From Promethearchaeota archaeon (GTDB taxonomy: Archaea; Asgardarchaeota; Hermodarchaeia; Hermodarchaeales; Hermodarchaeaceae): 64,000 nucleotides of DNA. Below are positions 12,845 through 17,581 of the stretch, piece after piece (the first letter of the stretch is position 1; each line of letters opens with the position of its first letter). The translations under genes and the position numbers were made by a program. Location: positions 1 through 64,000 of the forward strand of contig JBHLPR010000005.1 of assembly GCA_048939245.1 (NCBI GenBank), written 5' to 3'. The notes below the pieces were generated by a model. It did no database searches, was not told the DNA's origin, and saw only the letters and a list, made by a program, of their open reading frames with translations.

Positions 12845-14371
12845 ATGACAACCGAAAACCTAGGAACCGTCGTCTGCACTGAAGATGGGCCTTCAACTGA
12901 GAAAATCTCATTTGTTATTGGTAAACGTGATGAAATTTCTGAAGTAGCACAAATACCTGTTCACGTTGGGCAATATGTAGCAATTGAAACTGAAGAAGGT
13001 CTAGTTATTGCTCATGTAGAAGAGGTTGTCAAGACAAACCGCTATTTCTCACAAGTTGATGCCGTCCACGAGTTCACACGATCAGGAAAACCCTTTGATG
13101 CTATTTTCCCTATTGATCGATGGGAATATGTGTTAGCTCAAGCAAGGCCTCTAGGTATTTTTGAGAAAGATCACATTCAACGAATTACGTACCCCCCTTC
13201 ACCTGGGGCTATCGTCCAGTTGCCAGACCCCGATCTTCTATCTGAATTCCTAGGCTTCCACAAAGATGGAATCCACCTTGGCCATTTACTGTTTCATGAA
13301 ATCCCAGCTTGTTTCGATTTGACTAAAATGTATCAGAAGCATGTAGCGCTATTAGCGATGAGTGGAGCGGGGAAGAGTTATGCAGCTACAGTGATGATTG
13401 AAGAACTCTTATCACGGAAGGCAGCTCAGGGCCGCCCAGCAATCCTTGTCATTGATGTTCATGGGGAATATTCGGGTTTAGCAGAATCTCAAGAGATCAA
13501 AGGAAAAAATATTGCTAATCGATTAGCAATCATACGAAGTCCACTCGTCGAATTAGCGACTCCACGAATGGGAGCAAAAGCCTTCGCAACATACTCCCCA
13601 GATATGGGGACGATTCAAGTTCGTGAACTTACTCGTATTATTCGTGCCATGCGAAGTGCCAGAAGAGGTCAGCCTTATGATTTGGGAGACTTGATTACTG
13701 CATTAGAACAAGACCCGTCAATCAATACTCGAACACGAGAAGCACTGCTGGGATGGCTTGATAACCTTCAAAGTCTAAACCTTTTCGGAAAGACATCAAC
13801 ACCTGAATGGAAGACATTAATGAAGCCTGGGCATGGGATAATCCTTGACTTAAGTGAGACTGTAAGTCTACAAAAGAAGCAAATTATTGTAGATGCTGTT
13901 CTTCGCCATTTATTCGATTTGAGACGAGATGACAATATTCCCCCCACAGTAGTATTTCTGGAGGAATCCCATCAATTCTGCCCGGAAACTCGTCGTGCTT
14001 TAGCTTTTTCAAAAGGTATCCTAGAAACCATCGCTAGAGAGGGGCGCAAATACAATTTTTCTTTATGTGTTATTTCGCAGCGACCTGTTCGGCTTTCAAC
14101 TACTGTCCTTTCACAATGTGGAACAAACATCTTTCTTCGAATTACTAATCCCTACGATCTTGATCATATCAGAGCTACTTCAGAGAAAATCACTAAAGCG
14201 ACCTTAACATCCATATCAAGTCTTAGTGTTGGAGAGGCTTTAGTTGTTGGTCAAGCTACCCGATTTCCAGTCTTTATCAAGATACGAAAACGGACAACAG
14301 AAGAAACCTCGTTTGGTGAAGACTTTGAAACAGTGGCGAAAAAATTTGAGAAGAAAGGGAAAGCCAAGTGA
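12845..14371 (+). CDS. herA: HerA helicase/ATPase
   Basis: N-terminal HAS barrel, HVALLAMSGAGKSY, DVHGEY, EESHQF, AREGRKY, SQRP. Confidence 0.92.
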   Translation: MTTENLGTVVCTEDGPSTEKISFVIGKRDEISEVAQIPVHVGQYVAIETEEGLVIAHVEEVVKTNRYFSQVDAVHEFTRSGKPFDAIFPIDRWEYVLAQARPLGIFEKDHIQRITYPPSPGAIVQLPDPDLLSEFLGFHKDGIHLGHLLFHEIPACFDLTKMYQKHVALLAMSGAGKSYAATVMIEELLSRKAAQGRPAILVIDVHGEYSGLAESQEIKGKNIANRLAIIRSPLVELATPRMGAKAFATYSPDMGTIQVRELTRIIRAMRSARRGQPYDLGDLITALEQDPSINTRTREALLGWLDNLQSLNLFGKTSTPEWKTLMKPGHGIILDLSETVSLQKKQIIVDAVLRHLFDLRRDDNIPPTVVFLEESHQFCPETRRALAFSKGILETIAREGRKYNFSLCVISQRPVRLSTTVLSQCGTNIFLRITNPYDLDHIRATSEKITKATLTSISSLSVGEALVVGQATRFPVFIKIRKRTTEETSFGEDFETVAKKFEKKGKAK

Positions 14372-14374
14372 TGG

Positions 14375-14519
14375 TGGTGGGCACGGCGGGATTCAAACCC
14401 GCGACCTCCGGCTTACCTAGGCTTCGCAAACGAATGTTTGGAGCGGCACCATATAAGGCTTACACACTCCATGCGATAAGCACGAAGTTCGGCGCTCCAT
14501 CAGGCTAAGCCACGTGCCC
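14375..14519 (-). tRNA. tRNA-Ile(UAU) with two BHB introns (29/30: 14460-14489; 37/38: 14414-14451), encoded CCA
   Basis: Spliced sequence GGGCACG TG GCTT AGCCTGATG GAGC G CCGGC CT TAT AA GCCGG AGGTC GCGGG TTTGAAT CCCGC CGTGCCC A CCA (77 nt, all stems pair). Anticodon at 14453-14455, discriminator A. Both introns are bounded by BHB-type motifs. Confidence 0.88.
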
Positions 14520-14566
14520 TTATGAAATCTGTGATATTTTTCAATTGCTTAAATGTGTCGGCATGC

Positions 14567-17500
14567 CTATTCATCTTGTACAAGGAAGGTGAAATTGACT
14601 TCTGTTTCCGCGAATTTCAATCTCCCTTCAGCAGCTCCCTTTATAGTTGGTAGAGCATCACTAATTTCTACTGAAATGGCCCCTACTTTTGAAGAAATCG
14701 TTTCACTGGTTCTTTCTATTGCTTTCCTTAAATCCGGTGATTTTGTCGCCACATGAAGTCGGATATTTTGTGTAACGTGTAGTCCTGCTTTCTTACGTGT
14801 AGATTGAATTTGGCGAATTAAGTCCCGGGCAAGACGTTCCGCTTTGAGTTCTGGAGTCTCTGAAACATCAAGGTAGATTTTAGCAAATGATAACTCCTTT
14901 TCTTGGAAGGAGTCAGCCTTTACTTTTTTATGAATTTCCACAGTTTTTACGTTTGTTTGACTAGCAACAACATCATTGAAATGTTCAAGCTGAAATTCCT
15001 TCATTGAAGGTATAATGACTAGTCGTTGACAAGGCCAGCGAAGTTTAATTCCAGCTTCTTGTCGCATATACTGCACAGTTTCGACGATTTCCGCTGCCCA
15101 TTCCATTTCTTGGCTTAACTCAGGGTCGATGAGTTTCTCATTTACCGAAGGCCACTGAAGCATGTGCACGCTGGTGGGGGCATTAGGTTCAGCAGAACGA
15201 ATGAGTGCTTGATACATTTTTTCTGTTTGAAATGGTAAGACTGGAGCTAAAACTGTAAGAAGAGTGCGAAGGACATGATAGAGCGTTGTGAATGCTTGAG
15301 TTTTTGTTTCATCTTGAGAGCTAACCCACGTTCGAGGGCGGATGAGCTTAATATACCACCGACTCAGGTCTTTTACAACGAACTCTTCCATTAATCGAGG
15401 AACATAAGGTAATTCGTATTTATCCAATCGTTCAGTTACTTCTTTGATGAGTGTGTTCAATTGGGAGAGAATCCAGCGATCTTCCCACTGCAGATTCTTG
15501 GGGTTAAATTCGTGTTTACTTGGATCATAATCGGCTGCTTTCATGAAGGTGGTAGCAAAAACGTATACATTCCATAGAATCGATAAGCTACGTCGTGTGT
15601 CTTCAACATCTTTCCAGAGAAAGTGCATATCTTCTCCAGGCCCAGTACTCTTGATACTATAGATTCGAAGTGTCTCTGCACCAACTTTTTTCACTATCTC
15701 TTCTGGAAGAAGGCCTGTTCCCTTTGATTTGGACATAGGTCGACCTTGTTCATCAGTCGTGAAGCCATGCATATACACATTTCTGTATGGTTCTCGATCA
15801 GCTACAAGCATAGTCGAGTTGAAGAGCACGTTGAACCAGTTGCTAATTTGATCTTTGCCTTCAATGACAAATTCAGCTGTTTCCCAATTATCAAAGTCTT
15901 TTGTCCCATATGTAGCCCATCGTGTGGCCCATGGAGCAACACCACTCTCTAACCATACATCTAGAACATCGGGAATTCGTGACATAGTACCTTTGCATTT
16001 AGCGCAATTCCAGGTGACTTCATCAATCCAAGGTCTATGAAGGTTCTCAAGATTAATGTCTGTTTTTTCGGCTAATTCATCAAAGCTACCAATCACTTCC
16101 ATTTGATTGCATTTATCACAGATCCAAATGGGCAAGGGTGCGCCCCAATAGCGTTGACGTGATATACACCAATCACGGAGATTTTGTACCCAGTTTCGGA
16201 ACCAAGTATGGCCAGCCCAATCCGGAACCCATTTTACATCTTCGTTCTTTTTGATGATATCATTCCTAAGATTACTTACACGTAAAAACCATTGATCCGT
16301 AGCCAAATAGATTAAAGGGCTATTACATCGCCAACAATGCGCATATTCGTGTTCAATGGTATCTTGATGTACTAACAAGTTCTTCATACGTAAATCTTCA
16401 AGTACAGCTTCGCTTGCCTTTTCCACCCGCATTCCCGCGTATTTTCCTCCATCTTCAGAAAAAGTGCCAGAAAAAGTCACTGGACAAAAAATGGGAATTC
16501 CTTCCCGAACACCCACTTCGAAATCTTCCGGACCATGCCCTGGCGCCATATGAACAATACCAGTACCTTGTTCCAATGTTACATACTCATCACTTAATAG
16601 GACAGAATGAACTTTCTTTGAATCTTTATGGAATTGAGCTTGGCGAGGAACTTCATCAACCAAAGGGTGTTCGTATCGGAGACCGAGAAGTTCTGAACCT
16701 TTTACCTGTTCTATGACCTCATATGATTTGTTCAGTAATGCTTGGAGAATGATATTGGCTAACCCCTTTGCCAGAATCCAAATTTCATGATCAACACGAA
16801 CCCTAACGTATTCATATTCGGGGTTCACCATCACAGCCATATTCGCTGGTAGGGTCCAAGGAGTCGTAGTCCAAATAATTATGAATTCATCTTTTCTGCC
16901 AATTACAGGAAACTTAACCCAAATTGAATAATCTTCAATTGTGCGATACTCGTGCTCGCGTTTTGCTAAAGCTGTTTCACAGCGAACACAGCAATCAATC
17001 GATCGTAAGCCACGATATAAAAAGCCGCGTTCATGGGCACGTTTCATCAGATACCAAGTTCCTTCAATGTAAGGGTTATCAATTGTGCGATAGGGATGTT
17101 CCCAATCCATCCAAACCCCCAATCGTTTGAATTGCTCAGTCATCCGATTTAAATTGGAGAGCGCAAACTTCTGGCATCGTTCAATGAATTTATCAACACC
17201 AATTGTTGTTTCGATATCCAGCTTCGATTTGAGTCCTAGTTCTTTTTCAACATGCACTTCAATTGGTAATCCATGCATGTCAAATCCCGGTGTGTCTATT
17301 ACACGAAATCCTCGCATCCTTCGATATCGTAGAACTAGGTCTTTCATGATCTTATTCCATGCAGTTCCTAAGTGAATAGCACCGGTTGTATAGGGTGGAC
17401 CGTCCAGAAATTGGAATACCGGACGTTCTCGAAGTTGTTCAGTTATTTTCGAGTATACTTGATGTTTCTCCCAGAATTGGAGTATCTCTTCTTCTAAGGA

Positions 17501-17581
17501 GGGAAGATCAAAATTCTTTGGAAGCTCTGAAACTGGCATTGCATGCATATGCTCCATTAATTTCTGATGTAAGCCTACCAA
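14567..17581 (-). CDS. ileS: Isoleucyl-tRNA synthetase (start probably one of the ATGs near 17539-17557)
   Basis: FLDGPPYTTGAIHLGT (HIGH-like), IWTTTPWTLPAN, DWCISRQRYWG, PMSKS. Confidence 0.97.
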   Translation of the reverse strand: MVGLHQKLMEHMHAMPVSELPKNFDLPSLEEEILQFWEKHQVYSKITEQLRERPVFQFLDGPPYTTGAIHLGTAWNKIMKDLVLRYRRMRGFRVIDTPGFDMHGLPIEVHVEKELGLKSKLDIETTIGVDKFIERCQKFALSNLNRMTEQFKRLGVWMDWEHPYRTIDNPYIEGTWYLMKRAHERGFLYRGLRSIDCCVRCETALAKREHEYRTIEDYSIWVKFPVIGRKDEFIIIWTTTPWTLPANMAVMVNPEYEYVRVRVDHEIWILAKGLANIILQALLNKSYEVIEQVKGSELLGLRYEHPLVDEVPRQAQFHKDSKKVHSVLLSDEYVTLEQGTGIVHMAPGHGPEDFEVGVREGIPIFCPVTFSGTFSEDGGKYAGMRVEKASEAVLEDLRMKNLLVHQDTIEHEYAHCWRCNSPLIYLATDQWFLRVSNLRNDIIKKNEDVKWVPDWAGHTWFRNWVQNLRDWCISRQRYWGAPLPIWICDKCNQMEVIGSFDELAEKTDINLENLHRPWIDEVTWNCAKCKGTMSRIPDVLDVWLESGVAPWATRWATYGTKDFDNWETAEFVIEGKDQISNWFNVLFNSTMLVADREPYRNVYMHGFTTDEQGRPMSKSKGTGLLPEEIVKKVGAETLRIYSIKSTGPGEDMHFLWKDVEDTRRSLSILWNVYVFATTFMKAADYDPSKHEFNPKNLQWEDRWILSQLNTLIKEVTERLDKYELPYVPRLMEEFVVKDLSRWYIKLIRPRTWVSSQDETKTQAFTTLYHVLRTLLTVLAPVLPFQTEKMYQALIRSAEPNAPTSVHMLQWPSVNEKLIDPELSQEMEWAAEIVETVQYMRQEAGIKLRWPCQRLVIIPSMKEFQLEHFNDVVASQTNVKTVEIHKKVKADSFQEKELSFAKIYLDVSETPELKAERLARDLIRQIQSTRKKAGLHVTQNIRLHVATKSPDLRKAIERTSETISSKVGAISVEISDALPTIKGAAEGRLKFAETEVNFTFLVQDE

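What the first reader, a model, noticed from the sequence alone, without database searches (positions are those of the whole stretch)
14375..14519. Hidden tRNA-Ile with a UAU anticodon
Seen: read naively the gene looks like a broken Arg(TCG) tRNA. Removing two BHB-bounded segments gives a perfect CCGGC/GCCGG stem with loop CT-TAT-AA and discriminator A73. The intron strand TAGG pairs with C32-T33-T34-A35, independently fixing the anticodon register. Established: nearly all archaea read AUA with tRNA-Ile2(CAU) modified to agmatidine by TiaS. UAU tRNAs are known exceptions in Nanoarchaeum and Korarchaeum, while eukaryotes use tRNA-Ile(UAU), typically intron-containing. Inference: this probable Asgard lineage decodes AUA the eukaryotic way and may have lost tiaS.
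Basis: partly seen in the sequence, partly recalled or inferred. Interest (0 to 1): 0.8.

Follow-up and report, generated by a model that had tools for sequence, protein, structure and literature searches.

The report
tRNA-Ile(UAU) whose intron carries ACA guide
This Asgard archaeon reads the isoleucine codon AUA with a real, twice-interrupted tRNA instead of the usual archaeal enzyme-modified one, and the intron beside the anticodon keeps a fold-back segment plus an ACA box that probably calls in the pseudouridine enzyme Cbf5 to mark the tRNA's own wobble base, so that methionine codons are not misread.

Summary
Confirmed. Removing a 30-nt intron (29/30) and a 38-nt intron (37/38) gives a clean tRNA-Ile(UAU), next to ileS, in a Hermodarchaeia genome. 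It is conserved in 17 of 19 class genomes; one relative lacks the first intron and shows the predicted junction. TiaS is absent from all 19. Among 400 Asgard genomes, 12 families (195 genomes, including Loki- and Odinarchaeia) lack TiaS and each has a UAU tRNA. Heimdall- and Njordarchaeia keep TiaS. UAU replacing TiaS is known from Korarchaeum and Nanoarchaeum. The stronger result is in intron 2: 14 nt that pair back onto the tRNA's own 5' exon, then ACA, which is the H/ACA guide spacing to U34. This module is in 53 of 58 distinct Asgard UAU introns, with compensatory changes, in none of 33 other introns, and also in Korarchaeota and Nanopusillus. Cbf5, Nop10 and Gar1 are present; the Pus1/TruA family is not. 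Best reading (0.6, inferred): self-guided pseudouridylation of U34, perhaps U36, before splicing. That is a eukaryote-like result by a different enzyme. I found it in no paper; this scan noted it earlier on other Asgard DNA.

The parts
14375..14519 (-). tRNA-Ile(UAU) gene with two introns and encoded CCA
14490..14519 (-). exon 1 (tRNA positions 1-29; unusual A19 and G21)
14493..14499 (-). D-arm 3' strand U20-G26; partner of the intron-2 segment in the alternative fold (lower helix H1), and G24-C27 is the central helix of intron 1's BHB
14460..14489 (-). intron 1, 30 nt, position 29/30, relaxed BHB, 9-bp hairpin; variable, absent in relative G016
14452..14459 (-). exon 2, 8 nt (G30-A37)
14453..14455 (-). 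anticodon U34-A35-U36
14414..14451 (-). intron 2, 38 nt, position 37/38, full BHB
14438..14451 (-). 14-nt guide-like segment: nt 2-4 pair with C32-C31-G30, nt 7-13 pair with G26-U20
14435..14437 (-). ACA box, 14 nt after A37
14416..14419 (-). UAGG strand of the intron-2 BHB central helix
14375..14413 (-). exon 3 (A38 to CCA; U56 matching A19)
14548..14553 (-). TATA-like TTTAAG 29-34 nt upstream, conserved in relatives (own promoter, inferred)
14567..17581 (-). ileS, isoleucyl-tRNA synthetase, ending 47 bp upstream of the tRNA on the same strand
   Evidence: TIGR00392, 919 bits; same order in 8 related loci
12845..14371 (+). herA helicase (after nurA), convergent, stop codon 3 bp from the tRNA's 3' end; context only

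Best explanation
Shown: a functional-looking tRNA-Ile(UAU) replaces tRNA-Ile2(CAU) and TiaS for reading AUA (1.2% of codons here). Shown by comparison: its anticodon-loop intron keeps a module of 14 nt complementary to the tRNA's own 5' exon followed by ACA. Inferred mechanism: (1) the splicing endonuclease removes intron 1, whose BHB uses G24-C27 and competes with the module; (2) the precursor folds into a hairpin with U33-U34-A35-U36-A37 in the loop, a lower helix and an ACA tail; (3) Cbf5 (with Nop10 and Gar1) binds helix plus ACA through its PUA domain, as on the 3' half of an H/ACA guide or on a T-arm/acceptor minihelix with CCA, and turns U34, perhaps also U36, into pseudouridine; (4) the RNA refolds to the BHB, intron 2 is cut out and the signal is lost. 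Pseudouridine 34 would favour A over G and cannot receive the C5 side chain that Elp3 puts on other U34 tRNAs (own knowledge), so AUG is not misread.
For: ACA at offset 14-16 after A37 in 48 of 58 distinct Asgard UAU introns (shuffled introns: mean 4, maximum 11 of 2000), and displaced together with its guide by a 24-32 nt insert in 5 more; 0 of 33 other anticodon-loop introns. All 15 genes found after the idea was written down carry the module, 13 of them found without using ACA. The G facing C32 is invariant; five pairs change on both sides between families (21:12, 23:10, 25:8, 20:13, 29:5). In families f18-f20 the lower helix is built inside the intron instead, yet the 14-15 nt spacing is kept. 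The module is also in a Korarchaeota contig (ACA) and in Nanopusillus (AGA). The spacing matches the 14-15 nt rule, and the 3' guide matters more than the 5' guide (PMC2377435); one H/ACA guide makes two pseudouridines in an unpaired UVUN and needs ACA for it (PMC7075261). The guide fold dominates once intron 1 is out (pair probability 0.83-0.86 against 0.31 before). Cbf5 with PUA domain in 18 of 19 genomes, Nop10 and Gar1 present, TruA/Pus1 in 0 of 19, Elp3 in 19 of 19. In Haloferax a U34 tRNA-Ile gets cnm5U and binds AUG (PMC3895270).
Against: No modification or expression data. There is no 5' guide strand, upper helix or K-turn, so this is not a canonical H/ACA RNA, and cis guiding of this shape is untested. 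Five of 58 introns lack a clear ACA module (3 in f19, both in f21), and a second UAU copy in G122 has CCA there. The genomes are kin, so the shuffle counts overstate significance. One Ile2(CAU) intron (Heimdallarchaeum) has ACA at 15 without the C32 pair. TruD/Pus7 and Pus10 are also present. ViennaRNA ignores tertiary contacts and gives the BHB almost no weight, although it must form.
Confidence: 0.6

Rival explanations
1. The module docks a different enzyme: TruD/Pus7 (which prefers U followed by A), Pus10, or another PUA-domain enzyme such as a methyltransferase, acting on U34 or U36 of the precursor.
For: TruD and Pus10 are in the genome; archaeal Pus7 modifies UA dinucleotides and position 35 (PMC2651775); intron-dependent wobble methylation is known for pre-tRNA-Met of Haloferax (cited in PMC7075261).
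Against: None of these is known to need an ACA at 14-15 nt, which is the Cbf5 signature (PMC2377435). No convincing C/D guide for U34 was found in this genome.
Confidence: 0.15
2. The fold-back is only a processing switch: it orders splicing or hides the anticodon from Elp3 until late, and mature U34 stays unmodified, as in Mycoplasma mobile, with tRNA body changes (A19-U56, G21) and the ribosome giving the AUA/AUG discrimination.
For: Unmodified U34 works in M. mobile and a B. subtilis mutant (PMC3895270, PMC3575796). Some Asgard UAU introns lack ACA. The tRNA has unusual D- and T-loop bases.
Against: It does not explain an invariant ACA at a fixed distance in a loop that otherwise varies freely, nor its co-movement with the guide in f15-f17.
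Confidence: 0.15
3. The excised (circular) intron acts in trans as a minimal H/ACA guide on other precursor or mature tRNA-Ile molecules, like the box C/D intron of pre-tRNA-Trp.
For: Precedent of C/D guides in tRNA-Trp and tRNA-Met introns (PMC3491384). In f18-f20 the lower helix lies wholly inside the intron.
Against: In this lineage and seven other families the lower helix needs the tRNA's own D-arm; the intron has no strand matching positions 38-43; Nanopusillus introns are only 18 nt.
Confidence: 0.07
4. The gene is an error, a pseudogene or a disguised Ile2(CAU) whose C34 is restored by editing.
For: No RNA reads are available; the genome is 88% complete.
Against: U34 in all 17 class copies and in 12 families; A faces U34 in the BHB; no TiaS to modify a C34, also in closed genomes.
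Confidence: 0.03

Closest known systems
tRNA-Ile3(UAU) of Nanoarchaeum equitans and Ca. Korarchaeum cryptofilum (PMC6000648, PMC8450103)
   Same: UAU anticodon replacing Ile2(CAU); intron in the anticodon loop. Korarchaeota and Nanopusillus contigs carry the same intron module.
   Different: Described as two exceptions among 167 genomes; here it covers 12 Asgard families (195 of 400 genomes lack TiaS). No mechanism for U34 was found in the papers read.
Archaeal box H/ACA guide RNAs and Cbf5 (PMC2377435, PMC7075261; the Sulfolobales guide for pseudouridine 35 of pre-tRNA-Tyr, PMC2651775)
   Same: ACA box 14-15 nt from the target U, lower helix, 3' guide pairing, unpaired U-A-U-A target.
   Different: Guide and target are one molecule; no 5' guide, upper helix or K-turn; the lower helix is made with the tRNA's own D-arm; the signal is spliced away.
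Guide-free Cbf5 activity on tRNA U55 and 23S rRNA U2603 (PMC2018633 abstract, PMC2377435, PMC6138745 abstract)
   Same: A hairpin with the target as second loop base, 13 nt from loop to an ACA/CCA triplet bound by the PUA domain.
   Different: The target is the anticodon, and the hairpin exists only in the unspliced precursor.
Eukaryotic pre-tRNA-Ile(UAU) modified at 34 and 36 by Pus1 in an intron-dependent way (PMC9602550)
   Same: Same anticodon, intron at 37/38, and the same predicted product.
   Different: The Pus1/TruA family is absent here; the Asgard families labelled Heimdall- and Njordarchaeia keep TiaS, so shared ancestry is not shown.
Multi-intron tRNA genes of Asgard archaea (PMC11291895; bioRxiv 10.64898/2026.10.13.758758)
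   Same: Several BHB introns per gene at non-canonical positions, missed by annotators; most tRNAs of this genome are like that.
   Different: Neither text mentions UAU, TiaS or a guide function; the two-intron layout itself is ordinary here.

Membership tests
archaeal tRNA-Ile3(UAU) | cloverleaf with UAU anticodon and A73 after splicing | tested here: met
   natural junction in L069
archaeal tRNA-Ile3(UAU) | no TiaS in the genome | tested here: met
   closed relatives
archaeal tRNA-Ile3(UAU) | no third CAU tRNA (Ile2) | tested here: inconclusive
   only iMet and eMet found, but the genome is 88% complete and introns can hide a gene from the pattern
archaeal tRNA-Ile3(UAU) | charged with isoleucine and reads AUA, not AUG | not testable with these tools
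   indirect only: lies beside ileS
BHB tRNA introns | 4-bp central helix between 3-nt bulges, flanking helix | tested here: met
   intron 2 full motif; intron 1 relaxed (no exon helix)
BHB tRNA introns | splicing endonuclease encoded | tested here: met
   PF01974 and PF02778
box H/ACA guide RNA | ACA/ANA box 14-15 nt from the target U | tested here: met
box H/ACA guide RNA | lower helix H1 and 3' guide pairing with the sequence 5' of the target | tested here: met
   covariation at five pairs
box H/ACA guide RNA | 5' guide strand pairing 3' of the target | tested here: not met
   no intron strand matches positions 38-43; the target loop joins the 3' guide directly
box H/ACA guide RNA | upper helix of 5-6 bp with K-turn or K-loop | tested here: not met
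   absent in this intron by inspection; so it works like an H/ACA guide but is not filed as one
box H/ACA guide RNA | protein partners Cbf5, Nop10, Gar1, L7Ae encoded | tested here: inconclusive
   Cbf5 (with PUA), Nop10, Gar1 found; L7Ae only sought with a crude motif and not found
box H/ACA guide RNA | directs pseudouridine formation | not testable with these tools
   needs biochemistry
eukaryotic Pus1-dependent tRNA-Ile(UAU) | Pus1/TruA-family synthase present | tested here: not met
   PF01416 in 0 of 19 genomes, found in 13 of 14 controls

The most novel reading that the evidence does not exclude
Archaea that dropped TiaS (half of the sampled Asgard species, plus Korarchaeota and Nanoarchaeales) share one solution: a tRNA intron that is a cis-acting half H/ACA guide and makes Cbf5 pseudouridylate the tRNA's own anticodon before splicing. 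This would be a self-guided modification signal that is destroyed by splicing, and an archaeal counterpart, possibly a forerunner, of the intron-dependent eukaryotic modification of tRNA-Ile(UAU).
Probability: 0.55. Interest if true: 0.85.

Novelty: new variant of a known kind. Interest (0 to 1): 0.72.

Why it matters
How archaea without TiaS tell AUA from AUG is an open question: a plain U34 tRNA-Ile misreads AUG in Haloferax (PMC3895270). The module gives a precise, testable answer, and it is present in two cultured Asgard archaea, Promethearchaeum syntrophicum and Ca. Lokiarchaeum ossiferum. It would give a tRNA intron a function beyond being removed, extend Cbf5 to cis-guided targets, and turn the UAU strategy from two oddities into a widespread archaeal trait. 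It also limits a tempting story: the Heimdall- and Njord-labelled families keep TiaS, so a direct line to eukaryotes is not shown.

Tried and rejected
ARAGORN on the raw window: no gene; with one intron allowed: false Thr(CGT). Rfam gave only a partial tmRNA-clan match. A first phylum-wide pattern was too strict (6 hits) and BLAST with a Loki gene too insensitive; the looser pattern still caught only about 22 of 135 genomes in f20, so presence is shown per family, not per genome. Two loose tRNA scans of the genome were mostly noise. A search for a box C/D guide for Um34 gave only weak matches in coding DNA. PF22641 hits in f15 and f18 were rejected as TiaS: N-terminal domain only, 50-69 bits against 569. 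L246, first taken as a control intron of tRNA-Ile(GAU), proved to be a second two-intron UAU gene. No UAU gene was recovered from closed genome G022 or from G124 and G280; not pursued. A motif search missed Elp3, which the HMM then found, so the motif miss for L7Ae means little. No RNA holder listed. The promoter scan is bacterial-type and uninformative. Suzuki and Numata 2014 is not held. Family names come from protein look-ups; f3 as Atabeyarchaeia and f28 as Sifarchaeia are guesses from genome size and order and are not relied on.

Full report
OBSERVATION. The gene lies on the minus strand at 14519-14375. ARAGORN sees nothing in the raw window and calls Thr(CGT) if one intron is allowed. 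After removing 14489-14460 and 14451-14414 it returns a 77-nt tRNA-Ile(tat) with full stems, A73 and CCA. Intron 2 sits at 37/38 with a complete bulge-helix-bulge (C32-U33-U34-A35 against UAGG). Intron 1 sits at 29/30 with a relaxed motif: G24-C27 against GUGU and a 9-bp intron hairpin. The gene starts 47 bp after the stop of ileS (TIGR00392), behind a conserved TATA-like TTTAAG, and this order is kept in eight related loci.

NOT CHANCE. The IleRS is 77-86% identical to proteins of Ca. Hermodarchaeum yapensis and related genomes, so the lineage is Hermodarchaeia. The gene is in 17 of 19 genomes of the class. Exons are nearly invariant while intron 1 varies freely. G016 has no intron 1 and shows the predicted junction, and four genomes carry a further T-loop intron. 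Public contigs that cover the site differ only inside the introns and not at 14455. Many introns per tRNA are ordinary here: most of the 42 tRNA genes I could assign in this genome have them, as reported for other Asgard archaea (PMC11291895; bioRxiv 10.64898/2026.10.13.758758).

TIAS IS GONE, AND NOT ONLY HERE. Two Pfam TiaS domains, a profile of Asgard TiaS proteins and tblastn find nothing in this genome; PF22641 finds 0 of 19 in the class. Only initiator and elongator Met carry CAU. AUA is 11.6 per 1000 codons, so a reader is needed. Over 400 Asgard genomes PF22641 is all-or-none by family. The four hits inside the Loki class are N-terminal paralogues, and a full-length profile finds nothing in four closed genomes. 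That makes 12 families and 195 genomes without TiaS, and a UAU tRNA was found in each of the 12. They include P. syntrophicum, Ca. Lokiarchaeum ossiferum, Ca. Harpocratesius repetitus, Ca. Odinarchaeum yellowstonii and Helarchaeota. TiaS-positive families include Ca. Heimdallarchaeum aukensis and Njordarchaeales, and genomes from four such families carry Ile2(CAU). One exception: an intron-less UAU gene in TiaS-positive G336, on a contig of unclear origin. In the literature I could search, UAU replacing Ile2 is known only for Nanoarchaeum and Korarchaeum (PMC6000648, PMC8450103); searches for Asgard with agmatidine, TiaS or Ile2 gave no such report.

THE INTRON MODULE. Every host-type UAU gene has an intron at 37/38 or 38/39. 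These introns are very divergent except for two things. First, a 14-nt segment pairs with the tRNA's 5' exon: here nt 2-4 with C32-C31-G30 and nt 7-13 with G26-U20. Second, ACA follows at once (14437-14435). Among 58 distinct introns, ACA is at offset 14-16 in 48 (shuffles: mean 4, maximum 11), and in five more the guide and ACA are displaced together by a 24-32 nt insert. Five lack it. Of 33 other anticodon-loop introns none has ACA there. I wrote the idea down; all 15 genes found afterwards carry the module. Five pairs change on both sides between families, and the G facing C32 never changes. In eight families the lower helix uses the tRNA's own D-arm; in three it is built within the intron, with the spacing kept. 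A pattern without ACA, run on metagenomes, returned a Korarchaeota gene with five guide pairs and ACA at 14, and Nanopusillus genes with an 18-nt intron, the guide and AGA at 14. The genomes are related, so the counts are not independent, but the covariation and the spread over distant groups do not depend on that.

MECHANISM. In archaeal H/ACA complexes the target U lies 14 or 15 nt from the ANA box, and the 3' guide pairing matters more than the 5' one (PMC2377435). Cbf5's PUA domain binds the lower stem and ACA tail, and an unpaired UVUN target gets two pseudouridines if ACA is present (PMC7075261). The module puts U34 at that distance inside U-A-U-A. The same hairpin also resembles the T-arm/acceptor minihelix with CCA on which Cbf5 makes pseudouridine 55 without a guide. 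Cbf5 is in 18 of 19 genomes with its PUA domain, Nop10 and Gar1 are present, the TruA/Pus1 family is absent, and Elp3 is in all 19. In Haloferax a U34 tRNA-Ile receives cnm5U and binds AUG (PMC3895270), which gives the reason to mark U34 early. Folding predicts the guide form once intron 1 is out (0.83-0.86) and much less before (0.31), so the likely order is intron 1, modification, refolding, intron 2. The gene, the TiaS loss and the conserved module are shown by sequence; recruitment of Cbf5, the product, the order and the decoding effect are inferred (0.6). Rivals: another enzyme (0.15), a folding switch with unmodified U34 (0.15), action in trans (0.07), artefact (0.03).

COMPARISON AND VERDICT. 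The tRNA is a member of the known Ile3(UAU) type. The module works like the 3' half of an H/ACA guide but fails two defining tests (5' guide; upper helix with K-turn), so it is not filed as one. The predicted product matches the eukaryotic Pus1 product (PMC9602550), but the enzyme differs and Heimdall- and Njord-labelled families keep TiaS, so 'the eukaryotic way' holds at most for the outcome. I found the module in no paper. After I had reached this reading, the look-up showed that agents of this scan had noted the same module on other Asgard genomes; that is not independent support. New variant of a known kind; interest 0.72.

Noticed in passing
G000:C44 (L323, about 850-900), also L313 and L329: The cbf5 gene itself is interrupted, between the codons for NLD and KPPG, by a roughly 40-nt insert that breaks the frame in three Hermodarchaeia genomes; it looks like the BHB intron known from crenarchaeal cbf5. 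The enzyme proposed here would then depend on the same splicing endonuclease.
   Followed up: partly
   Followed up: partly
L246 (G127) and L286 (G122): Second tRNA-Ile(UAU) copies inside tRNA clusters, with an intron at 30/31 that mimics a GAU anticodon loop; L246 has the ACA module, L286 has CCA in its place.
   Followed up: partly
L118 (G336), L114 (G170), L171 (G172): Intron-less UAU tRNAs: one in a TiaS-positive genome, two in dense tRNA arrays that look viral.
   Followed up: no
L317-L320 (G122-G124, G129): Proteins of about 380 aa with an N-terminal HTH-like region and a TiaS-like DDTD domain in TiaS-less Loki-class families; not TiaS.
   Followed up: partly
G000:C59:13347-13491 (L330): The 37/38 intron of elongator tRNA-Met has a conserved stretch complementary to the D-arm and anticodon stem and a conserved GGGTCAGA motif in many Asgard genomes, perhaps a signal for Cm34.
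   Followed up: no
window 14500 and T-loop of exon 3: The near-universal tertiary pair G19-C56 is A19-U56 in all 17 Hermodarchaeia copies, with G21 for A21; may tune decoding.
   Followed up: no
L262 (G020): The UAU gene of this closed genome seems to carry four introns, one apparently nested.
   Followed up: no
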